The notes under the pieces: model-generated
What the model saw: only the letters and a program-made list of their open reading frames with translations
Told to the model about the DNA's origin: nothing
Databases searched by the model: none
Translations under genes and position numbers: made by a program
Assembly (NCBI RefSeq): GCF_000002075.1
Contig: NW_004797282.1
Location: 2,292,830 to 2,354,799, forward strand
DNA from: Aplysia californica
Lineage: Eukaryota
Direction of reading: 5' to 3'
Length of the DNA stretch: 61,970 nucleotides
Shown here: positions 1 through 26,686 of the stretch, piece by piece
Layout: each line of letters opens with the position of its first letter
Numbering within the stretch: position 1 is the first letter of the stretch

Positions 1-566
1 AGAGAGAGAGAGAGAGAGAGAGACTGCAATTATATAATACATACTTAACGTCAACAAAGAATAGGAACAATTTCAATAGTTCAAGACTTGAATTTAATAG
101 GGACAAGAGAGATTTCAACAAAACCATAATCTACACAAGTTGCAAATACATTTCTAAAAAAATGTTCTCATTGAACCTGTGGAAAAAATGAAAGTGAACC
201 AGTTTTGGAGAATACGGGAGGGTACATAGATCTAGATCTATGTCTAAACAGCAGATAACAGGTTAAGAAAATCTTCATTGGACCCTTGTCCTCTTTCCAT
301 TCAACGATGTTTTGTCCCAATCTTAAAATTAAAGAAAGAAACCCTTAAGTCTGTTTCTGAGAGTCGTATTTGTTTCGAAAAATTGTTACTTTTTAATAGA
401 AAACAAAAAGTTAATTTTTAATTTTGAAAGATAAAGTTAATCGTTTCTCCCTCCCACTTCCTTTTCAAGCCTGCTTTGGGTGTGAGGAGGGGGGATGTCT
501 TAAGCAAAGTATCACATAATAGTGTACCCTCCCTCCGCGTCCTCTTCCCTCTTTCTTTGAGTCTGT

Positions 567-3500
567 TTAGGCCTCAACACAGTCACTGAGATCTACGTCG
601 AATAGTTTTTGGGGTACTGGTATCTCCGTAGGGTTCACGAAGGAAAGGATCTTACTGAGGCCATTTTTCTTGTCCACCAGATTTGCGGAGATGGGGAAGC
701 ATTTGTCCTTAGACATCACCCACGTTTCTTTCACGTCTGCGTTCTAGACAAAAAACAAAATAAAACATTAAAGGACCACAAAAACTTAAAGGAGTCGTGG
801 TACTAAGATGTCGTATTTTTTAAGTCACCCTGTAATGAGACAATGTACATTCAAGATGATCAATATTTCAATGATAAAACACACAAAAGCATTCTCGACT
901 TCCCAGTAGACATACAGTGCAAGCAGCCGATTAAGTTTTCATACACTAACTAACTATTGAGATCTTCCGCTACCTGTTCCTAAATTGGCGGAGTACAGAG
1001 TGTCAGACCCAGAACGGGCTTTGAATCCACGACCTTTGAGTTACAAGCCCGAAAACCTTGACTGTTTAACCGCGTCCTCAGTTTCACCAGGCAACCTCCA
1101 TGAGATAGCTTTAAGGATATACGAGTATTTCTAGGCGTGCTGACAAAATGAATCAATTCTCGGAGTTTAGCCATGCGGAAACAAATAGAAACATCACATT
1201 TACTGGTTGGGTATATGAAATGATAAAACACAGATATTTAACTTGAAGTAAAGGGTATCAATTGAAAAATTTACAAATTTTAGGAGTCTATTATTTTTTG
1301 GCATACATCTCCACTGGCGTATTACGAGAAATAACTCCTTTTATCAACACGCCAATGTCGTGGAGCCTTACTTATCACCGTGAAGCTCTGGTTCTAACTA
1401 GGTCCACTTTCGACAATTATTTGTTTGGAATATTAGAAGAGTCATAAATAAGTAGGCAATTTTAGATACTTTTATGTCCAGGCGAGTTCTGCATGGGTTG
1501 ATGGTGAAACCCCACACTCTTTCTGGCAAGCCAACCTCAAGTCTTCTCCCCGTCATTGTCGACCAGTCTGGGGACCCCTGATGTGTGCATAGGAGCAGGG
1601 GTTGCAGACGGAGCTCTGGCCAGGAGGTACCATAGTTCTGCGAGGTGCAATGTGAGCAACGACCCTTCGGCCCGAAGAAGGGTCTGCACACATCCACCAT
1701 TATTGTAGGTCTTTCGTCAAAGCAGGCCAACCTGTTCATTCAGGAACTCACTGTCGACATCTTCTTCACTCCCTCTCTCGGGAGCTCTACAGACGGGGCA
1801 TGGCACCCACAGACTGCGAGATGACTCATCGTGTGGTGTCTCCGCGGACCCAGAAGGCCTTGTAGCAGTAAGGAATAGGCTGCCTGGAAACATATGACGT
1901 CCCTACTGATATCCTTGCAAATGCTCACTGATCCATGACGGGACGATCCTCTGTCTGAGTAGATTTGGCCATCCCTTGAATTATTCTGCTCCATGAACGG
2001 AAATGTTAATAGCAGATAGCCAACTGATGGCGGGAATTGGACAAACGCAAGCTAAACTATGTAATGTAGGAGACTCGCTGTGGACGGAATGCGTTAGCCT
2101 TTACTCAACGGGACCCCTTACTGGACTGCTCAGACGATCACTGGTCATTGGTTGCTTTTTTTGGCTCCCATCCCTCAGAAATAGAGTGTGCCTACACCCC
2201 CTTATAACTGTCTACTATATAAGAAATCCCTGTGATGATGGATGGAAAACAGGACTGCGAACATTGTATCTTCGTTCTCTTGCGGCAAGATGTTTGGGCA
2301 CAAGCCAGTGTCAGAATAAGACTACCACTTAACTGAGATCCTACAGGGATGCATACAAGCCTTCAGATCCCCCAAACCAATAGAATGCCTCTACAATAAA
2401 TACAACTCTACGAGGTAGAATGTCGCCTCGGTTATGAAGGTCCGCGCTTTCTGCCTTCTTCCGGGAGCGGGAGTGCCAAGTCAGCTACTGGGACCCACGC
2501 TGCGGATATAGGGGCCATAGGCAACACACAGATACCACAGACTCCCCAACCTACAGACACACAAACATTGAATTGCAGCCTTACATCTCATCAATACAGA
2601 ACAAGAAAATGGAACTTGCAAAGATGCTGTCAGACTTAAAAATTTATGTAGCCCTGCTACTGGAAACCCAAATACCCAAGCGGATAGAGTTTCATTTGAC
2701 ATGCTACACAATGTTCCACTGCAAGTGCACCAAATGTCAAGGTATCGCAACCCTCATTCGGAATGACATCACGGCCGAGGTTTCTCACCCAGAAACCGAT
2801 GACGAAACTGACATGCAGGAAGTGAAAGTGCAGCAGTCGGATGGAACAACCTACACCATCTACAATGTATACTGCTCACCGAGAACTACTCTGCAGCTCA
2901 ATTTCCGTAAAACATACCACAAACATACATTCTTGCGGGAGATTTCAATGAACGCTCTCCGCTGTGGGGTTACAGTGATAAAGACACGACATTAACAGTT
3001 CTAGAAGAACTACTGAGATTAAGCAACCTCATTTCACTTCAATATGACAAGACACCACCCACCCTACTTCATAGAGCCAGCGGAACTCTCAGCACATCAG
3101 ACTTGACTTTGGTCTCAGACCTTCACCCGCACCGCTCCATGACTGTCCGAGATGACATAGGAAGGTCCTAGATGACATAGGAGGTGACCACCACCCAATC
3201 CTACTGCAGATATCCAGCAACATGAAACGAGAGCGACCAACCCCATAAGACGCAGTTGGAACTACAAGAAAGCAAACTGGGAGCTCTACCAATAGAATTC
3301 TGAAAGTAGACTCTTGAGAGTATGCACGACCAACCAAATTGATGAGGGCTGCAAGGACATCGCCACAGCACTAAAGACATCTGCTAAGAAAGCGATTCCA
3401 TGAGGGAACCCAAAGAAGTTCGCCCATTATTGAGACAAAGAACTGGAACAGCTAGCTGACCAAGGCCAGAAAGAAAGCCAGATGGCGAGCTGAGAAAAAC

Positions 3501-6367
3501 CCAACAGCCGAAAACAGAAAGCACTACAACTACCTGACTGCCAAGGTAAAACTGAAGAGTAAAAATGTTAAAAGAAAAACTTGGAAAGAACATTGTGGAG
3601 AACTAGACCTGCTTAAGGGCGGGAGGAAAACCTGGAACCTGCTCGTCAATCTCTCAGTCACAAAAAGAAGGAATTTCCCTGTCCCAATGAAACCAACTGA
3701 GAAAGGAAAAACATGAAGAGCTGAGGTTATGAATAAATACTTTGCTAGCATCAACAAGAAAGGAAACCAGAACAAACTGAGCAACACAATAAAGCAGCTG
3801 ACCAAAAGTGCCGAACAGACCCCCAAGGCAAACCTGGATGTGTTTGAGTAGGAGTTTATTTTGACGGAATTGAAGACTGCTCACAAAAAGTGTAAAAAGA
3901 GAAATGCTCCAAGACCAGACCACATCACCAATGAGATGATCCTCAACATGGCAGACTCTTCCCTTTCCATACTTTTGGACTTCTTCAACAGAACCTGGAA
4001 TGAGGGACAGCTTCCAATAGAATGGAAGAAGGCAAACATCACACCAATACTGAAGGACAAACCAGCAAGCCAGCCTTCAAGCTGTAGACCAATCTCTTTA
4101 ACATCATGCCTGAGTAAGGTCGTATAGAGAGATTGGTCAACGACAGACTTTACTGGTGGATGGAAAACACCGGCACAATCAGCACATCACAGACAGGATT
4201 CAGGAAAGGCAAAAGAGCTATAGACTACCTCATCAGATTTTCCCAGAAGACCAGGGATGCCTTACAAGATAAAAACAATGTTGTGACCTGAGGCAGGCGT
4301 ATGATCGTGTGTGGAGACAGGGACTGTTCTACAAAATACAAAACCTTGGGATAGCAGGAAGGATGTACAGCTGGGTCAAGAACTTTCTGTCTAGCAGAAC
4401 TATCGAGACTTCGTATGACAACAAGATTTTTTCACAGAGGACACTCGAGGAGGATCTTCCACAGAAGCCAGAACTCAGCTGTACCCTCTTCCTGTTGTTT
4501 ATAAACGACTTGCCAGATGCATCTCCAGACAGAAAGCACTCTACCCTAACGACTTGGTCATCTGCAGCAAAGGAAGTGACATGAGAGTATTGAACCATGC
4601 CATTAACATGGACCTGAATACTATCTCGTCCTACTGCCCGCTATGGAAGATGGAAATCAGCACACACAAGACTGTTTTTGGACTCTTCAGCCTCAAAAAC
4701 AAGATTACAGCAGGTCAGGTAAACCAGGTAAACCTGAAGATCAATGGAACCAACATTAAATATGAGGACTATCCCAAGTACCTTGGTGTACAACTGGAAC
4801 GAAATTTGTCTCTCAAAAAGCACTTAGGTGAGCTGACCAAGAAAGCCACCTCCAGACTAAACCGTCTGAAATTACTTTCATCAATCAACTGGGAAACTGA
4901 CAAAGCAACCCTCCGACAACTCTGGGTATGTCAGATCTGTGATTGATTACTCCCTACCACTACAATCCATAGCCAGCCAAAGCTCTTTGGCCCAGTTTGA
5001 CAGAGTAGAGAACCATGCGCTCCGATTTGTTTATGGCCACTCTTACTATCGCCTGCAAAATCCACACCAATATAGAACGACTGAACCTCAGAAGAAAGAG
5101 TGCTACACTCGAAACCTACGAAAGATTTGTGCGGCTAGAAGACACGAATGAAAACAGGAAAATGGCAGATGAGTGGGAACCAAGAATACGCGTTCAGGAG
5201 ACCTCCTTCATACGAGGAGCAACAAAACTACTTAAGGAGTTTGACCCACCTTAGAACTGAGAACCAATCTCCAACATCAGCAGTAAACCTTCATAATATT
5301 GGCAGGCACCAGAAATCAAAATAAGGACGAAACTTTTAGACCTCTCTTGTGACAAGAAGAAATCCAGAAGAGGTCTGACCAGAAGAAATCCCCAAAACCT
5401 GGAGACAGTGGACTCGTATGCTGAAACTCCAATACATGCACACACAGATAGGTCAGCAACAAACGGTACACGGAATACTGGATACGGATCTATCATCAAA
5501 TATCGAAACAACATTGGAAAAAAGAAGCAGACCCAACTATCTGTCCCATGTGGAACATACAGCTCCAACTATGATGCAGAGAGAGTTGCCATAACAAAGA
5601 CCCTGGAGGAAATCACCCAAGACTTTTTTGAAGACGCAGTATCAGCAGGAGATGTTATTGTCTTCTCTGACTCAATGTTAGTACTCCAAGCTGTCGAGGG
5701 AGGTTGAGACTACAGAGGTGACGGGAACATTCTCAGCTTTGTAAAACAGAAGGGCACTTCCTTTGGCGTCCGGAGCACACTGCACGGGGTGCCTAGCCGT
5801 TCTAGAGTACCAGGGAATGAAACTCCAGACCAGCTATCAAAGGCTGGAGTAAGCCTGTCCCAAACAGACACAGTCGCCTCTTTACAGACCTTTACAGGGA
5901 TCATCCAAGCCAAAAACAGACAAGTGGCTAAGGAGATGGGCCAAGGAAGAAACAGGAAGGTCTCTCTTCGGGTACATGGTAAAAATAACCCCTAAGGTCC
6001 TTCGAATCTCCTATGTAGAGCTGATCAGACAATGATCTTCAGAGCCCGCACATGACGCTTACACACCAACAAGCACATAAACAGAATTAACCCACCTAGG
6101 AACCCCATTGCAGGCACTGTGACTACCACTAGGAGACCGTTGAACATCTTCTCCTTCAATGCCCAAACCTGGCAGTTCTTTGACACAGGCTCCTACAAAC
6201 ACAAACAGACTTACAAAGCCTGCTCTTCTGAGGCATTTACCAGATGAAAAGGACGTGTGGTTACTTGAGAGAGGCATTGCGCAGCTAAGAGCGAAATGGT
6301 CTCAGCTAAAAGGATTTGAAAACAAAAACAACAACATGCCCAGGCGTGCGGTAGGAAAGGGGAGGGG

Positions 6368-6399
<32 letters not shown>

Positions 6400-9300
6400 T
6401 ACATTTCTCAGCATATCTTCGATTAATCTTACAAATGGGGGGAGCTGACAGAATATTTGGTTTCTGACCTCATGGCCATAGTAACTCAAAATGGCCAAAA
6501 ATGTTGGACAGAACTTTGTACTTGTAAGGTAGCCATTTAACATCGGTTTTTATTAGCAGAGCAAAGTCTGTTATTAATTATTCTAATGGTCAACTCACGT
6601 CCACTTCCCAGGCAGCCACGTCAGGAGCTTCATAGACCAGAGTGGCGTCTTGATCGATACAATGAGGCACGTACTGCTTGTTGGGCAGGTCAGTTACTCT
6701 GGCAGGGAGGGAAAGTACATCATCCATTAAATCCTTTCTATCGTAATCATCTTGTAATTTAAGTATTCTTATAACCTATAAAGCATTCAATGTTAGAATA
6801 CTATTGAGTTACACCACATCATGTTTTCATGAAAAGACAAAAGCTCAACTATTTCCGAACTATGGACTACACAGATTTTCATTTATTAGGCATTTAAATG
6901 TATCATGAGGAAGTATTATTTTTTTAGGGTACTTTTTAACTTTTTAATGGGGGGGGGGGGTGTACACCCCAAAAGTCCCGAATCCACTCAAGACTATGGA
7001 TTTTAAGTTGCAGGCATTTCTAGCTTCTTCAGCCTCTCTTTCTATTATTTCATCGCATAAGAACCCCCTAAAGCATTATTACTTCCCATACCGGGCATTA
7101 CTGTCTCCACCATTTCCTCGTGAAGTCTTTTATTTTTCTTTATCGCCCGTTTTCTCGAAACGTAGTTTTTCTATATACTTTAAAAAAATTACTCCACCAT
7201 TTTTCTTTCAAACTTCTTGAAACTTTTGCAGAATGAAGAAAAGATGTATGTTTGATATATGGAATAGTTTTTTGTTGCTGGTCTATGGAGTGTGGATTTT
7301 CATGGATTTTTTGCAAACGTGAATACTACCTCAGAAAAAAAATCATAAAAGATTTTCTAGTACAATTAGGAAAAGTTCCTCTCACAGATTTGTAGATCTA
7401 TTGTTTGCAAAGATGCATGCAAAAGAACAATTTATTTCCATGAAAACTAAGTGCTGTATCAATTTCGTAAGACATGTCAACAAAACCCATTATGGCCGCC
7501 ATATCTATGGAAACACAACATTTTATCACAAATTTGAAGGCGGATTTTTAAACGTCTTATTATGATTGTTATATTTGTGAAATTTGCTAACATTTGATCC
7601 ACTAATCAGCGAGAGAGCCTTCAGATGTAGCCCGTCCTCTTAACATTGAAGATGGCTACTATAAAGTGACCAATACCCGTACTTGGGGTACGCACCCTCT
7701 CCTCATGCCGTGCACCTCAAGTGAAGCTGAATCTATTCGTGATACATACATGTTCACTGAGAATTGCTCGATACTATAAATAGCAGTGCGCATGAACACC
7801 TATGTCAACTGAAATACGTATGTAGCTTAATAATATCAATGTTAACAATTATCATGGTTGAGTTACCTTATGCATGTGGCGGGGAGCCTGTTTGTGAATG
7901 TAAACATACTATTGCATATTATGGTTATGTGTGCAGATGTGTNNNNNNNNNNNNNNNNNNNNNNNNNNNNNNNNNNNNNNNNNNNNNNNNNNNNNNNNNN
8001 NNNNNNNNNNNNNNNNNNNNNNNNNNNNNNNNNNNNNNNNNNNNNNNNNNNNNNNNNNNNNNNNNNNNNNNNNNNNNNNNNNNNNNNNNNNNNNNNNNNN
8101 NNNNNNNNNNNNNNNNNNNNNNNNNNNNNNNNNNNNNNNNNTATATGTGCCAGGATATAGACAATAAATATTTATCTTGTCTATCTTATCTATAAAATGG
8201 GGTTGGGGGGGGGGGGATGAGATGTTGCAATTTGTGATTAGCTGAGCCAGGCACGATATAAATGCTGTATAATATTCTACGATCAAATTGCATGAGTTAA
8301 CTTTTATGAATTAAATTGTAAATCACAATAAGTCGACACCCTGCTCATCAATAACACGGTCACTTCATGATCTTGAGATTTAAAAAAAAGTCAAACTTTC
8401 ATTTTCTATCTGAATCAGCATCATTTAGTGAAAAATAAAAACGTAATGCCTGTACAGTATTGGGTGTTATGAATTATGGCTGACACATTAAATGAGACAC
8501 ATTGTTATTGGAAGAAATAGAATCTGTCCATGTGGATATTACATGCATTTGCCATTCAGTCTGGTGTATCTTTTCCCAGCAACCTCGTCCATGAAGATAT
8601 AGTCGCCCTCTTGTCCCAGGACGTAAGCAATGACCTTGCCTTGAGTGAAGTCCGTGATAGCAAGATCCCAACNNNNNNNNNNNNNNNNNNNNNNNNNNNN
8701 NNNNNNNNNNNNNNNNNNNNNNNNNNNNNNNNNNNNNNNNNNNNNNNNNNNNNNNNNNNNNNNNNNNNNNNNNNNNNNNNNNNNNNNNNNNNNNNNNNNN
8801 NNNNNNNNNNNNNNNNNNNNNNNNNNGGATAGAGAATGAGATGTGTGGGATCAGAATAAATATGACAAAGACTGTAGGCGTAAGCATCCAGGAAGTCAAG
8901 ATATGAAAAAAGGCAAGTGGTACGTTAAGCATTTTGTCAATCTACGTCCGCAATGTCTATCTCTCAGGCAAAGACGTATTATGCATACTGCATTGAGATT
9001 ATCTGTCAATACTTTCAAAAAGCCATAGATGCTGTTGTTTTGCCGTAATCAACTTTCAGACTATTTTCCTGAGGGCTATCGTTAAGTGTCCGTTTTGTGA
9101 GTTCCACAGCTGTACTCGGGAAGAGACAGAAGCAAGTGAGGCTATGACTCTGGCTGAAGACTAGGTCCTCGGGTATGTAGGAGTGTGTTGCTGTGTCATC
9201 CACATTGCCACATCTTTGACCCTTCTGACTTGCATAATTTCTAGCCCAAAAGCAAAATAAAGCACGAAAGAGACCGATATTTTTATCGTAGAATATCGAG

Positions 9301-9980
9301 ACTATTTAATATTCTTTAATGAAGTTTTTAAAAATCTTCCATGGACACGATTTAGATCATTTAGGTAAATATGCTTGTCAGGCCTATCTTGGTTGAGAGG
9401 GATACAACACCCTATCCGAAAGATATTTTCAATAGAAATTATCCCCACACAGGAATCGAACGTTCAACGACAACACACCAAACTGCTACGTTACAAGAAA
9501 TGTTTTAATGACGTAATATACAAATTATTCTGAGACGAACTGCAAGGAACAAAAACGTCGACGATCTTCAAGGTTGAAGTATTTAGTACTTGCAGAATAT
9601 TGATTAAAAATGATACTCAGAATTTATTCAAATTTATACAAATTATTCTGGGACGAACAACTGAGAACAAAAATGTGATCGATTTTTAAGAATAAAAAAT
9701 TTAGCAGTTGCTGAATGATGATTAAATGTTGATACGTTAAGTTTATTCAGATTGATGGGAAAGCGTTATTGTGACAGTCAACAGCAAAAGTTTCTAAATA
9801 GAATAGTTGACAGAGTTGCGTCAAAAGGTATACCTCGTCCCCCATGTTGTAGACAGTGATGGAAAACGAGTCTGGCATACAACAGGGTGTGGTCCCAGAC
9901 GATGGAACAGCTCCTGAGGTCGACGCAAAGGTCAAGGCCACAGCCACCAGAGGCAGGACCATACGGGCAGAAAGATCCAT
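567..9980 (-). CDS. Secreted ependymin-related (EPDR-like) protein, paralog A; 4 coding exons, 184 aa
   Basis: Exons (minus): 9980..9834, 8673..8543 (first base and acceptor in an N gap), 6698..6599, 743..567. Visible boundaries are GT/AG, phases 0/2/0, total 555 nt. Protein: MDLSARMVLPLVAVALTFASTSGAVPSSGTTPCCMPDSFSITVYNMGDE|RWDLAITDFTQGKVIAYVLGQEGDYIFMDEVAGKRYTRLNGKC|IVTDLPNKQYVPHCIDQDATLVYEAPDVAAWEVD|NADVKETWVMSKDKCFPISANLVDKKNGLSKILSFVNPTEIPVPQKLFDVDLSDCVEA*. The hydrophobic signal peptide, CCxPxxF, CIxxxA, a conserved W, CxP and C-terminal F...P..F.....C resemble the ependymin family. The gene model is firmer than the family call. Confidence 0.85.
1485..6335 (+). mobile_element. Apparently full-length but decayed non-LTR retrotransposon (APE-RT-RNase H-CCHC; I group, Ingi-like) in the last intron of paralog A
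   Basis: APE motifs (LLETQ, IYNVYCSP, LAGDFN ~2930-2950), RT motifs (RPISLTSCLSK, QTGFRKG, LFLLFINDL, KYLGV), RNase H (HTDRSA, YDAERVAI, FSDSMLVLQA, VPGNE) and a C-terminal CRHC...EHLLLQC. (CAA)-rich tail at ~6320-6335. 11-bp TSD with one mismatch: ATGTCCAGGCG 1474..1484 / ATGCCCAGGCG 6336..6346. Many stops and frameshifts. Absent from the corresponding intron of paralog B. Confidence 0.9.
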
Positions 9981-10610
9981 TTTGTGGTAAAAAGTCGTCC
10001 GGAATGTGCTATAACATAAAGTTAATACTACATGTATTCATAATGGAGATAAAGAATAAAAGGAATAATAATTTACGTCTACAGCAAACAACAAGATATA
10101 GAAACAACAGGTATCAGATCTGTAGACTTTGCCCCTGCCTCATTACTCCGGAACTAGCTTTCATACAACAAATAAAGTAAGTTATCGAACCTTAAATCAG
10201 ATGATTTAGCAAAGAGATTTTGACCTCAATATTTTATGTCCAAGGGGGTCGTTTACTAATCCATAGACTTGACAGCCGTAGTCAAGCTTGGACCTGACAT
10301 AGAACAGAAAAGGTGGAGGACGTGTCTGGAGTCCACCCCCCCCCCCTCTAACTCCGGGGGATACAAAGTTTTAAAAAGATTTAATACTACCTGGCACCTG
10401 ACATGAATGTTTTTATTGACCTGACTATAGACAGTGAACGATCTTGTCAATTTGATAGTGTTTGAGCGCGTGAAATCCGCAGCTTGCACTGTATGCTTCC
10501 GCGGAAGCCGAGAATGTTTCTGAGTGTTCTCAGAGGGTCTGCTGGGGTAATAATAGTTGTAAAGCGCATAGAACATGATCTTGAGCGTGGATATGTGCTA
10601 CATGAATGCA

Positions 10611-10623
10611 ATTATTATTATTA

Positions 10624-10654
<31 letters not shown>

Positions 10655-10655
10655 A

Positions 10656-10698
<43 letters not shown>
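10611..10698. repeat. (ATT)n microsatellite (SINE tail)
   Basis: Direct reading. Confidence 0.95.
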
Positions 10699-11365
10699 GT
10701 ACGTGATGAGAGTTAATGTTTTGTCAAAAATTACTCCTCGGACACGAGGACGGGAATCCTCTACCCGCATAATGTCAACCTAGGTTGTAACACACGTCTG
10801 TGGGTCAGCAGAAGTGCACTGTAATCGGCTCTGACGTGGAAAACTTCAAACTGGTTTTATTTGCCCATTTTTCAAGTTTGAGCAGCAGCGTCTTCTGTTA
10901 TTGCCCCAAAGACCTTACTCGAGGATTCCTAGATCGGTAGCATAATAATACCAGAAATTCATCAGCGTTTTACAAGCTCTTTGTGGTTTTTTGAGGGCCC
11001 AAATGACGGATTTGGTTTAATTTCAAATAGGAGAAGAAAAAGTTGGTTAAGATCGACAGAGAAGATCCGACACAAACCTAGAAGGAGCAGGTGACCGTTT
11101 AGACCGAGAGTATACAGCACTCTGCTGAGAATACCGGGCATCAAGGTTATGTCAAAAGATTTTTTGCTAGTCACTGAAGGCCCCGAAATGCCGTTCATTA
11201 ATACTTAATCTATTGAGAAGTCATGTTGCATAAAGTGGTTCTCAAAATCGTTTGAAAGTGAAGTCTAGAAAAGTCAATGCTTGGCAGAGCAGGACTATCT
11301 TATTGTAAGTAAAATATTGATTATTATATTATTAGCTCAACAGTTAAACATTAATTTAATTACTT

Positions 11366-14761: not shown

Positions 14762-14762
14762 G

Positions 14763-14832: not shown

Positions 14833-14833
<1 letters not shown>

Positions 14834-16805
14834 AAATATCCCCTATATTAAAAAAGAAATTAAAAAATCACCACTACACTAAGATACAACCGGAATTTGA
14901 GGCAATAATTAGAATGATTTTGGCTATAACACTTTATGGCATTGCTGAACAGTTACCTTTTTTTTTTCTTTCATGATTAAAGGGAGACATTTCGCTAGGC
15001 TTTGAAAGCTTGGAGGATTCACGCGTGTAGAATCTTTGTTTAAAGTTTATACTCTGCCTTTTAGCACTTGCTTTCAAAACATTAGAACTGCTGGTCTACT
15101 TCTATAGCCACTGTGATAAGTAGAACAGCTTTTAAACTGGTTTAATCTGATTCGATTGTAAATGTTTTGTGCATTCTTCGAAACAGTTTTCATCGTTTGG
15201 GAGGTGGGCTGCTTACACCCTACCTACCAGTACGCCTTGACTGGGATGATTTTGTTAGTACCGAAAGACTAATATATCGGATGAACTATTAAAGCGATAT
15301 CTACGAGTATTATGTTACGTTACAAAACAAAATCGCACTGTTTTTGCGTTGCTATAATATATATTTGTAACACACTGAGAGCCAGTTTTCTCTGAATCAA
15401 GGTTGAGCGCTATACACATTTTANNNNNNNNNNNNNNNNNNNNNNNNNNNNNNNNNNNNNNNNNNNNNNNNNNNNNNNNNNNNNNNNNNNNNNNNNNNNN
15501 NNNNNNNNNNNNNNNNNNNNNNNNNNNNNNNNNNNNNNNNNNNNNNNNNNNNNNNACTGAGTGACAATTCATAGGCACTTTTATTTTAATTGAGTTATAT
15601 AAGATACAGAGAGCTACATTGTGTTACCTATTCGTGTGTGTCGGCAGAACGCTATGCTTTTAGCAGAACGGTCCTACAAACCAAAATTGGAAACGAACAT
15701 GATTTCTACTAAATGCAACATTGTCAAACCGCATTGAAATTAACCATACGGCAAGCTGCTAGCTTGTATAAAGAATAAAATACGTTTCTATTCCAAAGAA
15801 GTAAATAATAAAATGCAAATGTAATAGTGTGTGCTCTGCATTTTGTGATCGTGAAATAAATTCCATATTATTATTTTCGGCAAGTTGTTGAAATATATTA
15901 AGCCCATAAACACAATTTTACTGAAGAGGTTTGAAGCAAAAAAAACAACTGTTTAATTCTTCTTAACAATATTATGTTACCTATTTTGTGCCTTTTTTCA
16001 AACTTTTTTTCAACGTTTAATTTAGGATTTGACTTTTGACAATAATATAATATCTTGAGGACGTTCAACCAATACTACACATTGAAAATGATCTTTTTTT
16101 CTCTCAAAATTTGGGCTTTAGCAAAATGAAAGTTCTATGAATGCTGGACAATCACTAAAGACAGTAAAAATGAAATAGAAGAAACAGAAAAGTAGTTTCT
16201 AAGGAGACTGTTGAGAATATCTTGGAAGGAAAAGAAATCAAAATGCGGTGGTACTTGAAGAAGCCCACATGGGCGTTCACCGTTAAAAAACATTACCGGC
16301 GCCCTACCCTAAAACTTCATCCCGAAGCCTCCATGTTCTTTGCTACTCTTGCCTGCCCCTGGGTCACATGCTCCACACCCTTCCTTCAAGCACCTCTTTC
16401 ACAATGGGGCACACCATTGTTCACTGAATAGTATTAAGTAGATCTAAGTAAAGCGTGGTAAAGGAATAATAGCTGAGTCCGTTTAACGAGGAAAATTTCA
16501 AAGAATTTATTCTAGTTCACTCTTAACCTCAGCGTCAGTGTTCTAGTAGTTAAGCTCTAGGAATCTCAACCATAAGGTCGTGAGTTCGAATCCCCATTCT
16601 AGGCCTGACATTGTGTCCTTGTGAAAGGCACTTTACATAAACTTCCTCACTTCACCCTGGGTGTGAAATGGTACCGACATAGACCACTAAAGATCTTATC
16701 AGTTTGTTAGTGTTTGAGTGCATGTAAACTGCAGATTGCACTGTTTGCTTTCAGAAAAGCTGAAAATATTTCTGAATCGTATTGTAGGGTGTGCTGGGGC
16801 AATAC

Positions 16806-17041
16806 GCTACCTCAGAATCACAAGGTTGCTCAATAACTTGTTTTGAGAAATTCGACGTCAAAATTGTTGAGTTTCACAATATGTCAAGTTTTTTAGAATG
16901 CAGTTCTTTGAATGTCTTGATAACGACTCCAAATATCGTTACGATTTTTATAAAACAGATAGAGCACTTTCTTTCGCACCTCATGGTTTTAGTTACTCAA
17001 AATCGGCCAAAAATGTCAGAACTTCGTAAATCTGAGGTAGC
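16806..17041. mobile_element. MITE with GCTACCTCAGAATCACAA-type terminal inverted repeats (TIRs)
   Basis: Starts GCTACCTCAGAATCAC and ends TCTGAGGTAGC. Related copies at ~12770-12990, 22613..22860, 24367-24600, 34303..34711, ~47950-48335 and ~6400-6535. Confidence 0.75.
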
Positions 17042-17134
17042 ATATAATGGTTGTAAACCGCACAGAGAATGCTGCATGGCGAGGATGTGCGCTATTCAGA
17101 TGCAATCGCTATCTATTAGATTTAATTGTTTCTA

Positions 17135-17527
17135 ATATGTGAGGCAGCGTGGTGGAATCAGGCTCTCGTCAATTTTTGGGCATGTAGAGTTATTGGTGTC
17201 ATCCATTTATCTTGAATGCAAGTCAAAATATTTGATAATGAAGGAGATGGAGTCACCTGTTTTCAAAGGTAAAATTAGTGGGAAAATGGCCACCAAAGAT
17301 TAGTTATTTCCTTCGCTTAAGAGTCCGTGGTAACTGAAAACTTACATTTTTTGTGCCTTTAATCAACGTTTTTAAGAAAAATCCACACAGAAATGAGTTC
17401 TTCAATGGACATGAAAGGTGTTGAGCCAAAAAACAAAAATTTCATAAAAACTCACAAACCTGCGGAAAAATACAAGTTTCTTCACTATTTTGACGAGAGC
17501 CTGATTCCACCACGCTGCCTCACATAT
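17135..17527. mobile_element. MITE with ~38-bp perfect TIRs
   Basis: ATATGTGAGGCAGCGTGGTGGAATCAGGCTCTCGTCAA ... TTGACGAGAGCCTGATTCCACCACGCTGCCTCACATAT; no coding capacity. A second copy lies at 56540..56983. Confidence 0.88.
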
Positions 17528-17534
17528 ATTATTA

Positions 17535-19040
17535 TTGTTCCGCACTAATTACCTGTCGGTGTAATCTTAAGATTGCGCTGCGCGATTGAACGATCGTATG
17601 ATTGCGCGGCATTTTGAAGATTGCGTTAATATTTCAATGTTAATTTAAAATTCAATTTTCATATTTTAAAATTTTTGAAAATATCTGAATGTTCCTTGAT
17701 GTGAGTAAAAGAATAAAGATGAAAGTGAATAATAAAAATAATAATAAATTATTTCAAAAATATAAAATATTAACGCAATTTTAAGATTGCCGTGCAATTA
17801 TCATCATCATCCGGTGCCTTGCCGACTGGCGTGGGCGATCATGGACCTCCACTTCCATCTATCTTTCGAAGCAGCAATGGTGTCTGTTATTCTTGCTGCT
17901 CACGGCCATGTTGTCATCTTGTCCAGTATCTTTTCCCTCTGTCTGCCTCTACCTCTCTTTCCATCAAACTTTCCTGTTGTTACAATGTTCTCTAATGCTT
18001 CTTTCCGCATTGTGTGTCGAAAAAATTTGCCTGTCGTTTTCTTATATTCGTGATAAGTTGTTTTCTATAATTTGCTTCAACCAGGACTTCTTCATTTGTT
18101 TTTCTAGCTGTCCATGGGATACGTAGCATGCGTCTCATGAACCACAACTCTGCCGCAACAATTGTTCTTTCCAGCTGTTTATTGATTGCCCATGCTTCGC
18201 ACCCGTATAATAGGGTTGGCTCGATGTAACTTTTCATTACTCTTTTCCTCTTTTCCAGTGACAGATTGATGTTTGTTAGTATCTGTTTCATCTTGTGGAA
18301 GGTTGCTTTTGCTTGGCAAATGCGGCTTTTAATTTCGGTGTGACATCTACCATCTGATGATATAATGGTCCCCAAATATTTAAAATGTTGTACTTGCTTC
18401 AGGGTGGTATCATTGATTTTGATATTGCATGTTGGGATTGGAGTATTTCTGCTTATCTCCATCGTTTCGGTTTTCTTGATGTTTAGGTTTAAGCCCATGT
18501 TGTCACTCTCTTGTACGATGACATTTAATAGATTCTGCAGGTGTTTTTCATCTTCTGCTATTAGGACTTTGTCATCTGCATATCTTAGATTGTTTATATT
18601 GTGTCCCCCTATCGAGATACCAGGCATTTCTTCTATGTGTCTCATGATACTTTCACTATACAGGGAGAACAAGACTGGAGAAAGTACACATCCTTGTCTG
18701 ACTCCCTCTTTTAATCTGTATGTATTCGCTGATGTCATTTTCTATTCTCATTGCAGCAGTTTGATCCCAGTACATGTTTTTGATAATCCGTAAGTCCTTC
18801 CCGTCGATATTAAGAACTTCCAGCATGTCGATGATCTTGTCGTGCCTGATTTTGTCGAATGCCTTGGTGTAGTCTATAAAACATAAATGAAGATCTTTCT
18901 GAACTTCTAGGGCACGTTCTATTGTTGTTCTGATGACATATATGGCATTTACAGTGCCTTTGCCCGTGCAATTATACGATCGTTAAAACGCTCAGCACAA
19001 TCTTAAGATTGCATCGATCGGTAATAATTAGCGCGGAGCA
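17535..19040. mobile_element. Fold-back MITE with ~75-bp imperfect TIRs, interrupted by an RTE insertion
   Basis: 17536-17610 (TGTTCCGCACTAATT...AATCTTAAGATTG...AACGATCGTATGATTGCGCGG) is the reverse complement of 18964-19040, apart from scattered mismatches. Confidence 0.75.
17802..18963 (-). mobile_element. 5'-truncated RTE-clade LINE (RT C-terminal half)
   Basis: ORF 17992..18738 has GVRQGCVLSPVLF, LRYADD, FKYLG, LLYGCEAW; FIDYTKAFDKI lies upstream near 18850-18885. (GAT)n 3' tail at ~17802-17811. Perfect 12-bp TSD CCGTGCAATTAT at 17790..17801 and 18964..18975. Confidence 0.93.
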
Positions 19041-20142
19041 TTGTCATCGAACTCACTTTTTTTCTAAACGAATGGAAGAACTAAATCACTGAATTACAGC
19101 ACTATAAACGCAAGATTTGACAACAAATACCAGCGAAGTAATGATAAACTCTTCTAACGTTGTTGCGCATGGTAAATGTTCGTGTATAGGTTAAACGTTC
19201 CTGTCGATACTATTCGGGTATCTAAGAAGTGGGACCTCTGAATTTAACGTCTGTCTCCGATAGGACTGAATCAAAATATGGGTCCAGACTGATTCCTGGG
19301 AGAAACGTTTTATTGATTTTTAAAGGGATTTTTTTGCTGTTGTTGGTATTTTTCTTCAAATCGATTTCCCTGGGGCTCTCGAGGTCCAAAGGTTACTGTG
19401 TTCGCTTCTCATTCAATAGGTCCCGAGTTCTAAACTTGACAACTACGGAATATTTTCTTCTTTAAATTGTTCTCCTTTCCCCTTTTTCCCTGCTCTTTAA
19501 CCATGTTCTGTCGCCTTCTCTTGTCTCCATTTTCTGCCACTCTCCCTCCCCCCTTTGCCCCTTCCCCTTGGGCTCCAGACTCTTTCTGCAGTCTTTCTAC
19601 TGAAAAAGATCTTACCCCAAACCTTCTCTATTAAGGCGGGAAATCTAGGAGATCCCGTCTGCAAGATGCGTATGTTAAAGATCCCTTGGTGGTCCAAAAT
19701 CGATAAGAATATACTTTGGCCTCCATTCGGACAAAATTCAAAATTTTATACCAACTGAAAATGTTTAATGTGTTCCGCGCACTCATTTGACCTTGTGCAG
19801 TTGCAAGCCCCGTAAAACTCTTTTAAAAAAACGAGCCCCCCCCTCCCACATCTGTATACGGAGATGTTCTGTCCACGCTCTCCACTCAGGTTGGCCCAGG
19901 GTCCGGCCAGGTAGTATCAAAGCAGCCGGCCTCCTAAATAGCCTAAATAGAGTCGGATCGGCCGTACTCTTACGATAGAAACCGTACCGGATTATATTTT
20001 TGGAAAACTGGATCTTTACAAAGTATTGCAATTTTTATTAGAAATATAACAACAGAACGATAAAATTTTGTCGCTTAATAAATTAGCAGTTAAAAACTCG
20101 CCATCACCCATTGCACATCTAGGATTAATGTCAGGATAGCAG

Positions 20143-20212
20143 TATATAAACCCATGCTCTGCTGTCGTCAAAATGCAAACCACTTCAGACCGAGCTTAGG
20201 ACTTTGGTAAGT
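20143..20212 (+). promoter_or_regulatory. TATA box and short non-coding first exon of paralog B
   Basis: TATATAAA 20143..20150, predicted exon ~20170..20206, donor GTAAGT 20207..20212. The acceptor TTTTATAG ends at 21557. Confidence 0.65.
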
Positions 20213-20889
20213 ATGTGTACGACGTGCAAGTTGTTGTGATACGTGATAATACCGACGAATTACAATCTGATCTTCTCTACAAAATATTTTAAGATTTCAC
20301 TTTTAAGTAATCGAACTTCTGTTAAATTGTTGAGCTGTTGATATAACAACATTAACGTTTACTTTAAATGTATACCTCTGTTCTAAGAAACATTGACTAA
20401 TCTAGATAATACTTAAAAACAACTTTGAGAACCACTTTACGTAACATGAATTTTCAATTAGATAAGTGTTTAGTTTCGTTTTAGTAAGAGTTTTACGGCA
20501 CTTGTAACACAATAAGGTTATATAAGGGCCTTAGATTAAAGGTGTTACAAGTGAGTAACAAGGAGGAGAGATACGAACGATAGATGTTTGATAGGAAAGA
20601 AGGAGCAAACCACACCAAAGCACCCGCCAACCACCAACTCGTAGATGCATGACAAATAAACTAACAGGCATACATTGACTTAGTTCAATTTTTAGTATAA
20701 CTTAAATGTTAATAAACGGCATTCTGTGACTTCTTTCACTAGAAAAAGCTTCCGACATAACACGGAGGTCTCAGCAGAGACCTGCATACTCTCGGTTTAC
20801 GTTGGCGATCATAGACCCCCCGTTCCGTCTGTCTTGCGTTTAAGAACTGATGTCTGTTGTTCTTGCTGCTCCCAGCTACGGATCTAGGA

Positions 20890-21340
20890 ATCCTCAAATA
20901 AAATCAGTGGAAAGACAACAGAAGATGATGCTGCTAAAACTTGAAAAGTGGGCAAATAAAACCAGTTTCAAGTTTTCTACGTCAGAGTCGATTACTGTGT
21001 ACTTCTGTTGTCTAATTCGGCAGACGTGTATTACAACCGAGGTTGACATTATGCGGGGGAGATGATTCCCGTTCTGCAACAGGATCGTGTCCTAGAGTAT
21101 TTTTTTTTAACAAAAGATGAACGCTCATCCCGCACATTAAACACATTCACGTGAGGTGCCAGGAGTCCTTAAATCTGTTTCATCCGGAATAGGGATTTGG
21201 GGGGGGGGGGGTGGAGACTCCAGACACCTCCTCCATCTTTACTGTTCTACGTCAGGCCCAAGCTTGACTACGGCTGTCAAGTCTATGGATTAGTGAAGGG
21301 TTCTCTGGGGCAGAAAATACTGAGGTCAAAATCTCTTTGC
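20890..21340 (+). mobile_element. Old LINE RT C-terminal fragment in the 5'-UTR intron, shared with paralog A (mirror at ~10220-10420 and ~10700-10930)
   Basis: LEKWANKTSFKFSTSE, HIKHIHVRCQ and RPKLDYGCQVY-like motifs. Present in both arms, so it predates the inverted duplication. Confidence 0.6.
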
Positions 21341-21585
21341 TAAATCGTCTCATGTAAGGATCGATAACTTATCTTTTTTGTCTTATAAAAGCTAGTGCCT
21401 AAGTAATGAGACAGGAAAAAGGTCTACAGATCTGATACCTGTTCTTTCTTTTTCTTGTTGTTTGCTGCAGATGTAAAGTTATTCTTCCTACTATTTGCTA
21501 TTTTAATTATTCTTTATCTCCATTATGAATACATGTAGTATTAACCTTATTTTATAGCACATTCCGGACGACTTTTTACCACAAA

Positions 21586-22999
21586 ATGGATCTTTCTGCC
21601 CATCTGGTCCTGCCTCTGGTGGCTTTGGCCTTGACCTTTGCGTCAACCTCAGGAGCTGTTCCATCGTCTAGGACCACACCCTGTTGTATGCCAGACTCGT
21701 TTTCCATCACTGTCTACAACATGGGAGACGAGGTATGTCTTTTTACAGGAGCTTTTTATCAGCTATTCTACTTAGAAAATTGTGCAACTTGCTGTTGACT
21801 GTAACAATAATACTTCTGTAAAAAAAAATTGGACAGACTTTACGTACTATGTTTAATCACCATTCTACCACCACTAAATATTTTATCCATAAAGATTGAT
21901 AACGTTTTGGTTCCCTGTAGTTCGCCCCAGAATACTTTGTATATCCCCTCATTGCAAAAGTTGTGGTCAAGAGAATGTAGCAAATCTGTTATGAACGGTG
22001 CCTGTAATGTAGCAATTAGGTGTTCTGTCGTTGAACTTTTGTTTCCAGAGTGAAGATAAAAATTTATATCAATTATCTCGGTATTTCGGGTAAGATGTTG
22101 CATTCCTCTCAGCCTCAGTTGGCTCTGACAAGCACAGCCACCTTAATGATCTACATTGTTTTTATAGGGACGTAAAAACACCTCCATCGAAAAAATAACG
22201 AATTTTTAAATGTAAGAACATCAACTTCTACGAGCCTCTTCCGTGCTTTATATAAATTTGTGGGCTCGAAATCTTGCAAGTCTAAAGGATCAAAGATGGG
22301 GCAATGTGGATGACACAGCAACACTCTCCTCACATACCCGAGGACCTAGTCTTTAGTCAGAGTCACCATAGGTTAGATGCACTTGCTTATGTCTCTTCCA
22401 GAGCACAGATTTGGAACTCAAAAAACTGACTCTTGACAATAGCCCAGCCTCTCAAAGAGCATTTGTCTGAATATTAATAGCCGGCAAGACAACAGTCTCT
22501 ACAGTTTTTGTTGCCTTGTCACATTATTGTGATGCTTTTAAAGCAGTCCTCATAGTACGTCTTTGCCTGGGAGGTAGACATTGTGGACGTATATTGCCAA
22601 AGTACATATGTCGCTACCTTAGAACTACTAAGTTATATCTGTCCAGTATCTAATTTTTTCAGAATTCTGACGTAAAAATAATTTAAATTTCACAACATAA
22701 ATAATATCAAGTTTTTCGAATACAATTATTTAAATATTTCGATAACGACTAAATAATCTTACAATTTTGATATAACAGATATAACATTGAGTTTCTGACC
22801 ACGTGATCTTTGAAATGCAAAACGTCCAAAAAATTCAGAACTCTGTAATTCTAAGGTAGCATTAAACTATTCCCCTTTCTCCAGAACTTCACCTCTTTAT
22901 ATTATACTAGGTAACAAGCCTACAGTTTTTGCAATATTCTGATCCAACACAACCCATCCTCCATCCCCTTCCTTTTCCCCAAACCAAACACACACAAAC

Positions 23000-23062
<63 letters not shown>

Positions 23063-25636
23063 CACACACGCGCACGCTCATTAAANNNNNNNNNNNNNNN
23101 NNNNNNNNNNNNNNNNNNNNNNNNNNNNNNNNNNNNNNNNNNNNNNNNNNNNNNNNNNNNNNNNNNNNNNNNNNNNNNNNNNNNNNNNNNNNNNNNNNNN
23201 NNNNNNNNNNNNNNNNNNNNNNNNNNNNNNNCAGCGTTGGGATCTTGCTATAAGGGACTTCACACACGGCAAGGTCATTGCTTACGTCCTGGGACAAGAG
23301 GGCGACTATATCTTCATGGACGAGGTTGCTGGGAAAAGATACACCAGACTGAATGGCAAATGCATGTAATATCCACATGGACAGATTCTATATCTTTCAA
23401 TAAAAACGTGTTTCATTTAATGTGTCAGCCATAATTCATAACACAGGCATTACATTTTCATCATTCACTAATATAAAGAATGCAAGATTGAAATTATTAT
23501 TCTTTATAATACTATAATATGACCATGTTGCTGCTTAACAGGTTGTCGACTCTTCGAGATTCAGATTTTAATCTATAAAACTTAATTTATACAAGAATGT
23601 CACACAATTTTTTTACACTGCCTGGTTTTCCTCGTCACAAATCTCACACCTCACATCCACCACCTTTTTAAGGTAAGGTAGATAAAATTAATCTTTAGTG
23701 TTCTGATCCTGGCACACATACACATATACATACATATTCGTTNNNNNNNNNNNNNNNNNNNNNNNNNNNNNNNNNNNNNNNNNNNNNNNNNNNNNNNNNN
23801 NNNNNNNNNNNNNNNNNNNNNNNNNNNNNNNNNNNNNNNNNNNNNNNNNNNNNNNNNNNNNNNNNNNNNNNNNNNNNNNNNNNNNNNNNNNNNNNNNNNN
23901 NNNNNNNNNNNNNNNNNNNNNNNNNNNNNNNNNNNNNNNNNNNNNNNNNNNNNTCCATAAACACATGTACATATAACTATAATAATACATTTGTATGCTT
24001 GCACTCACATGCATGATATAGATAAACAATAATGGTTACCATTTATAAAATATAATAAGTTAGATACGTAATCAGTGTTTTGACTGCAACCAAATGATAT
24101 CCTAATATTGCATGCTTCATAGATCATTGGAATACTTATATTTCAAGATGATTATCAAAGTAGGAGTTTAATGGATGATGTACTTCCGATCCTTACCAGA
24201 GTGACTGATCTGCCAAACAAGCAGTACATACCTCATTGTATCGATCAAAACGCCACTCTGGTCTATGAAGCTCCTGACGTGGCTGCCTGGGAAGTGGACG
24301 TGAGTTGACCATTGTAATAATTAATAGCAGACTTAGCTCTGTTAATAAAACCGATGCCAAATTATGGCTACCTTAAAATGACAAAGCTCTATCTGACATT
24401 TTCAGCCATTTTGAGTTACTAAGACCATTAGGTCTGGAACCAAAATTTCTGTCTGCTTTATCAAAATCATAAGATGATTCGTAATTGTTATCAAGATATT
24501 CAAGGAATTGCTTTCACAAAAGCCTGACATGTTGCAGAACACTTTTTAACGTCAAATTTCTCAAACTAGGTACTGAGCAGATAGAGCTTGTGATTCTAGG
24601 AAAGCGAAATGTACGAGCTAAAACTCACCACACATTACTGGGCATTACTGGGCATAAACGTATTTTAAAATCGCCTTCTTATTAATGGCTCTTTTAATGT
24701 TCCAACAAATAATTGACAAAACTGGACCAAGTAAGGGCCAGAGCTTTACAGTGATTAGCAAGCTCCATGGAAAACGGCGTGCTGATAAAATTTTAATGAG
24801 TTATTTTTCACGATCCACGAATGGAGCTCTCTGCCAAAAAAAAAAAGACTCACGAACTTGGTAGATTTACAACTTGTACTATTTGCTTCAAGTTAAATAT
24901 CTGTGTTTTAATGCTATTATTTCATATAATAAATTATTTAAATTCAACCCGTACATGGGATGTTTCTATTTGTTTCCGCATGGGTAAACTCCGACTATTA
25001 AATCATTTTGCCACCACACCTAAACCATATCCTGAAATCCACGTCACGGAGATTGCTTGGTGGAACTGAGGACACGGTTTTAAACAGTCCTGGTCAGAGT
25101 TGTACTTGTAACTCAAAGGTCCTGGGTTCGGATCCCATCAGGGGTCTGACACTGTATTCTTTGGAAGACACTGTACATACATGTTCCTTAGTTCATCCAT
25201 TTGGGAATAGGCAGCCGAAAATTTTATCAGTTTGTTAGTGTTTGAACGCTTGACAATAGGCTGCTGGCACTGTATACTTCATGGGAAGCCGAGAATGCTT
25301 CTAGGTGTTCTACTTTTAAAATCTTGATCATCTTGAATGTGCATTGTCGCATTGCAGGGTGACTTAATAAATAAGACATCTTTGTACCACGACTCCTCTA
25401 AGGGTTTTTTTCTGTCCCTTTAACGTTTTATTTTGTCTTTGCCTCTCCATATCCCCTAGAACGCTGACGTGAAAGAAACGTGGGTGATGTCTAAGGACAA
25501 ATGCTTCCCCATGGCCGCACGTCTTGAGGACAAGAAAAATGGCATCAATAAGCTCCTTTCTTTCGCGGACCCTACGGAGATAACGGTACCCCAAAAACTG
25601 TTCGACGTAGATATCAGTGACTGTGTTGAGGCTTAA
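21586..25636 (+). CDS. Secreted ependymin-related (EPDR-like) protein, paralog B; 4 coding exons, 184 aa
   Basis: Exons 21586..21732, 23235..23365, 24200..24299, 25460..25636 (147+131+100+177=555 nt), all GT/AG, open frame ending TAA. Protein: MDLSAHLVLPLVALALTFASTSGAVPSSRTTPCCMPDSFSITVYNMGDE|RWDLAIRDFTHGKVIAYVLGQEGDYIFMDEVAGKRYTRLNGKC|IVTDLPNKQYIPHCIDQNATLVYEAPDVAAWEVD|NADVKETWVMSKDKCFPMAARLEDKKNGINKLLSFADPTEITVPQKLFDVDISDCVEA*. It differs from paralog A at 19 residues by hand count. Confidence 0.88.
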
Positions 25637-26686
25637 ACAGACTCAGAGAAAGATCGAAGAGGGGAGGGGGTAAGGATGGAGGTACACGTTTATAATTATG
25701 GTGTGCACTCTATAAGATACCCCCTTCCACATAACAGACTTGAAAAAGAGGCTGGGAAGTCAAAGCTGGGCAGAAAAAAGAGAGACATTGTTCAAAATTA
25801 ATAACTAATTTTTTTGCCTTATATTTTTTAAAAAGGAACAGTTATCGAAACGAATACGAATCGCTCACAGAAACGAGCTTGAAGAATTTCATTTTTATGT
25901 TTGGGTAAAACAAACTGTTTAATGAAAAGACGAGACAATTCCTATCAAGATTTTCTTAGCATGTTCTCTGCTGAATAGACGTATGTACTCTTCTGTATTC
26001 TCCAAAACTGGTTCACTGCCTTTTTATCTTCTGATATAAGAAAATATTTTGGGAGATGTATTTGCAACCGGCGCAATTATTATTTTTGATGAGGAGAAAT
26101 AAATTTCAGCTTTATTTCAGTCTCTTTTGAATGCGCATGTTCTTTTGTATTAGAAGCGCTTCGGCGCTGAAATGGTGAAGCCTCCATTAAACTCAAGTCT
26201 TGAAACATTGACATGGCGTGCATTCTTCGTTGACGTATNNNNNNNNNNNNNNNNNNNNNNNNNNNNNNNNNNNNNNNNNNNNNNNNNNNNNNNNNNNNNN
26301 NNNNNNNNNNNNNNNNNNNNNNNNNNNNNNNNNNNNNNNNNNNNNNNNNNNNNNNNNNNNNNNNNNNNNNNNNNGCAGTGCGTACCCCATGAACTAAATA
26401 GGTCACACGCTGGAGCAAACCTGAACGAGACTATCGAAAAAGCAATACAGATTTGATACACCAAGACGCAATTGTGAACTAGACACACGAAGAATCAGAG
26501 GAGTCATTTGGTGCTGGGTAAAAGTAAAACAACAAGGATAGAATCAACAGAGGGAACGTAAAGTGGCACCCTTCAACCACACGCCATGAAGAAGCAAACC
26601 TGAACTCAACACACGAAGAAACAGTCCTACAGTCAGCCCCCCACCACCGCTACAGCTTCTCGTACCATCACATTCTACTTCTCCTG

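What the first reader, a model, noticed from the sequence alone, without database searches (positions are those of the whole stretch)
75..26210. Paralogs A and B sit head-to-head in a ~26-kb ancient palindrome
Seen: reverse-complement collinearity extends from beyond the 3' ends of both genes inward to a spacer of about 1 kb (~14700-15770). The arms are clearly diverged and carry arm-specific insertions: the LINE at 1485..6335 on the left, and the MITE/RTE stack at 17135..19040 and the MITE at 22613..22860 on the right. This makes an assembly fold-back unlikely. Inference: a fold-back duplication created a divergently transcribed pair with starts ~8.3 kb apart and mirrored upstream regulatory DNA, while C and D arose as direct repeats.
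Basis: partly seen in the sequence, partly recalled or inferred. Interest (0 to 1): 0.7.

Follow-up and report, generated by a model that had tools for sequence, protein, structure and literature searches.

The report
Old mirror duplication of ependymin-like genes
Two genes for predicted secreted ependymin-like proteins in a sea hare sit back to back inside a roughly 28-kb mirror-image duplication that likely arose in one fold-back copying error and has since decayed to about 75% identity, with signs of later copy-correction in some exons; this is a real but ordinary kind of gene-family event.

Summary
16 of 19 inverted matches form one collinear chain (6,272 columns, 75% identity), and the named insertions have target-site duplications or terminal repeats. 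Corrections: the mirror runs inward to an (AAC)n tract and the edge of the N, so the unmirrored spacer is about 0.6-0.7 kb. It also runs outward past the window (about 28 kb). A third copy, E, is a later direct duplicate of arm A just left of the window. A, B and E have intact 184-codon frames with the six-cysteine pattern of profile-2 ependymin-related proteins; neighbour P0001 is named as Aplysia californica. Non-coding A-B divergence is 22%, but silent sites of coding exons 2-4 differ at only 3-8% from B, which points to gene conversion across the arms. One-step fold-back is likely but not proven. No contig bridges the central N, and expression is not shown. Head-to-head pairs make up 10-21% of linked animal duplications (PMC3194840), and this scan has noted similar converting inverted pairs on other DNA. 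New member of a known kind; low interest.

The parts
1..14833 (-). Left arm (gene A unit); continues about 1.2-1.4 kb left of the window
   Evidence: collinear inverted chain
15556..26905 (+). Right arm (gene B unit)
14834..15423 (.). Unmirrored spacer; its halves are not self-complementary; its first 516 bp are also copied beside gene E
   Evidence: 297 of 300 shuffles reach the score of its two halves; genome search gives itself, the E copy and three matches under 90 bp
14763..14833 (+). (AAC)n tract at the inner end of the left arm
   Evidence: TRF; mirror block ends 14 bp before it
15424..15555 (.). 132 N at the mirror position of the (AAC)n tract; contigs run into it from both sides in T-rich simple sequence, none bridges it
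11814..11878 (-). Gene A TATA box and predicted non-coding exon 1
   Evidence: motif positions; block differs from B at 11 of 125 sites against 961 of 4356 overall; no transcript evidence
9834..9980 (-). Gene A coding exon 2 (signal-peptide-like start, CC motif)
8543..8673 (-). Gene A exon 3 (first base under N)
6599..6698 (-). Gene A exon 4
567..743 (-). Gene A exon 5 with stop
1475..6346 (+). Decayed LINE in the last intron of A, with target-site duplication; both ends shared with E, absent from B
   Evidence: (weak RVT_1, E 0.089)
20142..20206 (+). Gene B TATA box and predicted non-coding exon 1
21586..21732 (+). Gene B coding exon 2
23235..23365 (+). Gene B exon 3; run of 8 consecutive variable sites where A equals B (23279-23353)
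24200..24299 (+). Gene B exon 4; run of 6 variable sites where E equals B (24195-24230)
25460..25636 (+). Gene B exon 5 with stop; silent divergence at background level
17136..19040 (.). B-only stack: MITE plus TIR element with nested RT fragment
22602..22917 (.). B-only insert with inverted ends (MITE)
30489..32495 (+). Paralog C, direct orientation; exon 2 is out of frame (161 nt) and no last exon is visible
48678..51849 (+). Paralog D, direct orientation; exon 4 not visible (may lie under N)

Best explanation
The region is an old inverted duplication of a whole gene unit, predicted to encode a secreted ependymin-related protein, that likely formed in one fold-back or template-switch step. 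Shown: a mirrored unit of about 11-12 kb (promoter side to about 1.3 kb past the stop) around a 0.6-0.7 kb unmirrored spacer; B lies in the same direction as the older paralogs C, D and F, so the left arm is inferred to be the new copy. Inferred order: (1) direct duplications built the B, C, D, F array; (2) a nascent or broken strand folded back just upstream of B, possibly at the (AAC)n tract, copied the B unit backwards and rejoined the chromosome; (3) a LINE entered the left copy; (4) the left copy plus 0.5 kb of spacer duplicated directly, giving E and A; (5) elements kept inserting in each arm. Gene conversion likely homogenised coding exons 2-4 between B and the left copies, and the 5' halves of A and E. 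Each gene has its own TATA box, 8.3 kb apart, so they are probably separately promoted; at 75% identity with large inserts the arms would not act as a cruciform today.
For: Collinear chain, 16 of 19 HSPs. Mirror reaches the spacer from both sides with a short unique centre, as in fold-back duplications, whose spacers are 766-70,466 bp, median 3,428, with inverted homology at their edges (PMC3907307, section 8). Order of events: non-coding A-B 961 of 4356, E-B 948, A-E 271; LINE ends shared by A and E, empty site in B. Conversion: four-fold sites of exons 2-4 differ at 5 of 59 (A-B, p 0.005) and 2 of 59 (E-B, p 8e-5) against 22% background; silent private changes in exons 3-4 are B 0, A+E 7 against 169:88 in the flanking introns (p 7e-4); run of 8 A=B sites, 0 of 5000 shuffles; run of 6 E=B sites, 8 of 5000. 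A-E divergence varies from 1.3 to 18% by window (chi-square p 1e-51). Family: Cys 33, 34, 92, 106, 141, 181 and CxP match profile 2 of PMC6280359; P0001 is 53-55% identical and hits Ependymin clusters in the Atlas (score 0.94, TM 0.73).
Against: No junction can be compared with an ancestral state, so fold-back is inferred from layout only. The spacer is slightly shorter than the shortest human one. A junction at a microsatellite is weak evidence: 2.5% of unmasked bases lie within 50 bp of a trinucleotide run, but 23% if all simple runs and N are counted, and a tract inside the copied unit would be mirrored anyway. The innermost block is significant with A but not with E. Exon 5 shows no homogenisation (5 of 19, p 0.59). 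The run tests include amino-acid-changing sites, and in exon 3 E alone is derived at 4 of the 8 run sites while A and B share the derived base at 2; exon tree support among A, B, E is weak (41-74). P0001 scores below the Pfam cut-off (16.9 against 32.3 bits) and PF00811 found no match on this contig.
Confidence: 0.65

Rival explanations
1. A direct tandem duplication of the B unit came first, and a later small inversion flipped the left copy.
For: Direct duplication is the usual mode in this cluster (C, D, F, and E from A). Orientation switches also occur in the related cluster on C304.
Against: Both inversion breaks would have to fall within about 0.6 kb of the unit's ends, and the spacer shows no match to the unit's downstream end. 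Age profiles in six animals indicate that most inverted pairs are made inverted from the start (PMC3194840, passages).
Confidence: 0.15
2. The unit was copied by a DNA-level repair or 'drift' event and inserted in reverse close to its source, without a hairpin intermediate.
For: Such randomly oriented multi-exon copies are described (PMC3194840). No short priming homology can be proven here.
Against: Landing 0.6 kb from the start of the source unit is predicted by fold-back and is coincidence otherwise.
Confidence: 0.15
3. The head-to-head layout is a scaffolding error at the central N.
For: 0 of 4 laid runs has a contig that bridges the N. The window holds a clear artefact elsewhere (1,403-bp, 99.7% direct repeat round a 100-N run).
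Against: Arms differ at 22% of non-coding sites and carry separate insertions. The mirror continues right up to the N, which sits opposite the (AAC)n tract; contigs enter it from both sides in T-rich simple sequence, which breaks short-word contigs. It is 132 long, while two other runs in the window are exactly 100.
Confidence: 0.05

Closest known systems
Fold-back inverted duplications with a single-copy spacer (Hermetz et al. 2014, PMC3907307; abstract and section 8 read)
   Same: Inverted copy, short unduplicated spacer, inverted homology at the spacer edges.
   Different: Those are new, megabase-scale human events, often with terminal deletions. This one is a fixed, interstitial, 11-12 kb unit at 75% identity and needs a second switch back.
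Adjacent inverted paralogs under gene conversion, e.g. C. elegans hsp16-1/hsp16-48 modules 416 bp apart and hsp70-7/hsp70-8 (review PMC3966223, passages read)
   Same: Head-to-head layout, later re-duplication of the module, coding DNA more alike than flanks.
   Different: Here homogenisation is partial (exons 2-4, 94-97% identity), the starts are 8.3 kb apart, and introns and flanks still align.
Head-to-head linked duplicates in animal genomes (Ezawa et al. 2011, PMC3194840, passages read)
   Same: Multi-exon DNA-level duplicate in 3'-5' 5'-3' orientation; this class is 10.1-21.1% of linked duplications in their Table 2.
   Different: No mollusc was in that set.
Ependymin-related proteins, profile 2 (McDougall et al. 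2018, PMC6280359; parts 1-3 of 7 read, 8 supplement files searched)
   Same: Signal-peptide-like start, six cysteines, proline two after the fifth; clustered lineage-specific expansion (37 EPDRs listed for A. californica).
   Different: 184 aa against a median of 213; below the Pfam cut-off; A, B and E were not found in the protein collection.

Membership tests
Fold-back inverted duplication | Two collinear reverse-complement arms | tested here: met
   16 of 19 HSPs in one chain
Fold-back inverted duplication | Short single-copy spacer between the arms | tested here: met
   About 0.6-0.7 kb, not self-complementary, unique apart from the later E copy
Fold-back inverted duplication | Pre-existing inverted homology at the spacer edges | tested here: inconclusive
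   (AAC)n on the left faces a TTG-type loose end at the N; cannot tell a priming repeat from a copied one without an outgroup
Fold-back inverted duplication | Physical adjacency across the centre | tested here: inconclusive
   0 of 4 runs bridges the N; no long reads listed
Interlocus gene conversion | Local silent-site identity above the pair's background, with discordant site patterns | tested here: met
   Exons 2-4; not met for exon 5
Interlocus gene conversion | Paralogs closer within than between species | not testable with these tools
   No related genome is held
Active palindrome (Y-chromosome type; recalled) | Arms above about 99% identity end to end | tested here: not met
   75% identity with heterologous inserts
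Bidirectional promoter pair (starts under about 1 kb; recalled definition) | Shared short promoter | tested here: not met
   Separate TATA boxes 8.26 kb apart
Ependymin-related proteins (EPDR) | Profile-2 cysteines and conserved proline | tested here: met
   Cys 33, 34, 92, 106, 141, 181 in A, B, E; pattern
Ependymin-related proteins (EPDR) | Pfam PF00811 above the curated cut-off | tested here: not met
   P0001 16.9 bits, E 0.007, cut-off 32.3; 4 of 6 C304 relatives hit, all below cut-off; single exons of B gave no hit; spliced A, B, E were not scanned
Ependymin-related proteins (EPDR) | LolA/EPDR fold | tested here: inconclusive
   Atlas model of neighbour P0001 matches an Ependymin cluster at TM 0.73 and LolA clusters at 0.66-0.69; both sides predicted; A, B, E not folded
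Ependymin-related proteins (EPDR) | Secretion and lipid binding | not testable with these tools
   Hydrophobic N-terminus seen by eye; function by analogy to human EPDR1 (PMC6363788, abstract only)

The most novel reading that the evidence does not exclude
The centre is a fossil fold-back junction primed by an inverted (AAC)n/(GTT)n microsatellite pair 0.6 kb apart, and the three resulting unannotated ependymin-like genes still trade exon- and promoter-sized patches across both orientations, some still segregating among animals. That would make this a readable natural case of a simple repeat seeding a lasting gene duplication in a mollusc.
Probability: 0.2. Interest if true: 0.45.

Novelty: new member of a known kind. 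Interest (0 to 1): 0.24.

Why it matters
It gives a clean, layered history of one gene cluster (direct array, inverted copy, LINE, second direct copy, patchy conversion) and three intact ependymin-like genes that seem to be missing from public protein sets. It also warns that synonymous divergence (0.12) would understate the A-B split (non-coding 0.26) about twofold. None of the processes is new.

Tried and rejected
Expression: no RNA holder was listed. Two poly-A runs of unstated tissue (X21, X22) gave zero or near-zero depth in the bins holding the coding exons of A and B (A exons 4-5 were outside the laid stretch); this is no evidence either way. Bridging the N: 0 of 4 contig runs, expected to fail at simple repeats. 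A longer exon 4 (acceptor at 24164) was my first model; rejected because the acceptor at 24200 is shared by A, E and C and gives the profile-2 cysteine spacing. E as a mis-assembled allele of A: in 3 of 4 runs (one study) A-type and E-type contigs at 14633-14750 each have about single-copy depth and the shared piece about double; in X3 they are about half of single-copy depth, so that run is ambiguous. Protein search with B exon 5 found nothing among 29 candidates; with P0001 only itself among 69; the profile search gave 3 hits, of which only P0001 covers the profile. PDB sequence search gave nothing below E 0.4. Control cluster C304 (160 kb fetched): 20 inverted HSPs of 300 bp or more, none round the 157335/168698 switch and no long chain. 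Print: six searches (listings only unless stated) showed no paper on this locus; the accession and a motif were absent from 8 text-held supplement files of PMC6280359, whose alignments or figures may not be held as text. No age in years is given because no rate is available.

Full report
Observation. A self-BLAST of the window and a more sensitive arm-against-arm run confirm the mirror. Of 19 reverse-strand HSPs between 1-14762 and 15556-26900, 16 form one collinear chain of 6,272 columns at 75.2% identity. The 8 direct-strand HSPs are short scattered repeats. The named inserts are real: a decayed LINE at about 1486-6335 with a near-perfect 11-bp target duplication and an empty site in arm B, a MITE and a TIR element with a nested RT fragment at 17136-19040 (PF00078), and an insert at 22602-22917.

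Limits of the mirror. A further 47-bp block, 14703-14749 against 15602-15556, scores above all 2000 shuffles with arm A, though not with copy E (352 of 2000). So the mirror reaches the (AAC)n tract at 14763-14833 on the left and the edge of the 132-base N on the right. The remaining 14834-15423 is not self-complementary (297 of 300 shuffles score as high) and is unique in the genome apart from the E copy and three matches under 90 bp. Outward, homology passes the window edge: to 26784 against A's flank and to 26775-26905 against E's flank. The structure spans about 28 kb.

Context. The window is G000:C12:2292830-2354799. In 100 kb left and 60 kb right lie a full extra copy E (contig 2269939-2284653, same strand as A, 82-94% identical by block, including 516 bp of the spacer) and the last exon of a sixth gene F, which is the C-terminus of P0001, named by its source as an uncharacterised Aplysia californica protein. 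The order is E(-) A(-) B(+) C(+) D(+) F(+). A, B and E each give four coding exons with GT-AG ends and a 184-codon open frame without indels (one base and the acceptor of A exon 3 are under N). C has an out-of-frame exon 2 and no visible last exon; D's exon 4 is not visible.

Gene identity. The proteins have a hydrophobic start and cysteines at 33, 34, 92, 106, 141, 181 with a proline two after the fifth. This is profile 2 of the ependymin-related proteins in PMC6280359 (parts 1-3 of 7 read), which lists 37 EPDRs for this species (supplement row). P0001 is 53-55% identical to A and B; its best Pfam hit is Ependymin, below cut-off, and the Atlas places it with Ependymin clusters by features (0.94) and predicted structure (TM 0.73). 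PF00811 did not ring on this contig in a genome search. I file them as divergent EPDR-like; lipid carriage is an analogy to human EPDR1 (PMC6363788, abstract only).

Order of events. In 4,356 well-aligned non-coding columns A-B differ at 961, E-B at 948, A-E at 271 (columns outside the collinear HSPs or within 3 of a gap were dropped). E keeps both LINE ends with a 3.2-kb internal deletion, so the LINE entered after the inverted duplication and before the A/E split. B points the same way as the older C, D, F, so the left arm is inferred to be the derived copy.

Conversion. Coding divergence is dS 0.117, dN 0.050 for A-B, against a corrected non-coding distance of 0.26. The deficit is confined to exons 2-4: four-fold sites differ at 5 of 59 (A-B) and 2 of 59 (E-B), exon 5 at 5 of 19 and 4 of 19. 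Silent changes private to B are 0 in exons 3-4 while A and E together have 7, against 169:88 in the flanking introns (p 7e-4), so general constraint on silent sites does not explain it. Among 1,121 variable sites the longest A=B run (8) lies in exon 3 (0 of 5000 shuffles) and the longest E=B run (6) at exon 4 (8 of 5000). Against: the runs include replacement sites, E is the derived one at 4 of the 8 exon-3 sites, and exon trees are weakly supported. A and E are themselves mosaic (1.3-18% by 400-column window), and 46 of 51 hand-copied single-base differences seen in other runs on arm A are E alleles (35 of the 40 rows shown, where 178 more were hidden, and 16 of 19 rows). Part of that is simply E contigs laid on A, so segregating conversion is only a hint.

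Assembly check. No long-read run was listed. Four contig runs cover both flanks of the N and run 31-44 letters into it in T-rich simple sequence, TTG-type on the right, but none bridges it. This fits a mirrored microsatellite and does not prove adjacency. Copy E has single-copy depth beside A in three runs of one study and is ambiguous in a fourth. Two poly-A runs gave no usable signal on the exons.

Mechanism. Best reading (0.65): one fold-back or template-switch event just upstream of B, since a short unique spacer between mirrored arms is its signature (PMC3907307, abstract and section 8). Tandem duplication plus inversion (0.15) needs two breaks at the unit's ends; an inverted 'drift' insertion (0.15) needs a chance landing; mis-scaffolding (0.05) remains formally open. 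Priming at the (AAC)n tract is attractive but weakly supported (base rate 2.5-23%).

Comparison and verdict. Head-to-head pairs are 10-21% of linked duplications in six animals and are mostly born inverted (PMC3194840, passages). Conversion between adjacent inverted paralogs is documented in Caenorhabditis (PMC3966223, passages). Earlier unchecked notes of this scan describe similar pairs in other genomes; none covers this place. Six literature searches showed no paper on this locus. The feature is real, a new member of a known kind, interest 0.24.

Noticed in passing
G000:C12:2269939-2284653 (L005-L007), left of the window: Gene E: intact 184-codon direct duplicate of arm A, with a 3.2-kb internal deletion of the shared LINE; exons at 2279055-2279201, 2277662-2277792, 2275776-2275875, 2272711-2272887, minus strand.
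   Followed up: yes
G000:C304:126892-273429 (L021-L036); also C366 and C451: A cluster of more than 20 relatives whose whole coding region is one open frame, in mixed orientation, 22-28% identical to B, while the C12 genes have four coding exons. Possibly a retro-derived subfamily that then expanded in tandem.
   Followed up: partly
window 42463-43865 and 43966-45366: 1,403-bp direct repeat at 99.7% on either side of a 100-N run; looks like an unmerged contig overlap. Similar cases at left-flank 100-N runs.
   Followed up: no
window 30489-32495: Paralog C has an out-of-frame exon 2 and no visible last exon: probable pseudogene or sequence error.
   Followed up: partly
window 8567-12900 against E: A and E differ at only 1-7% over promoter, exons 1-2 and intron 2 but 10-18% over the LINE and intron 3; in run X1 a fully E-type contig at about double depth covers 9384-9870 with no A-type contig shown.
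   Followed up: partly
L015:5456-5632: Last exon of F (P0001); its first three coding exons were not found in the visible sequence.
   Followed up: partly
window 12771-12992, 16841-17043, 24367-24585, 34303-34450, 48197-48342: One MITE family recurs many times in the cluster; copies at 12771/16841 are mirrored and so predate the inverted duplication.
   Followed up: no
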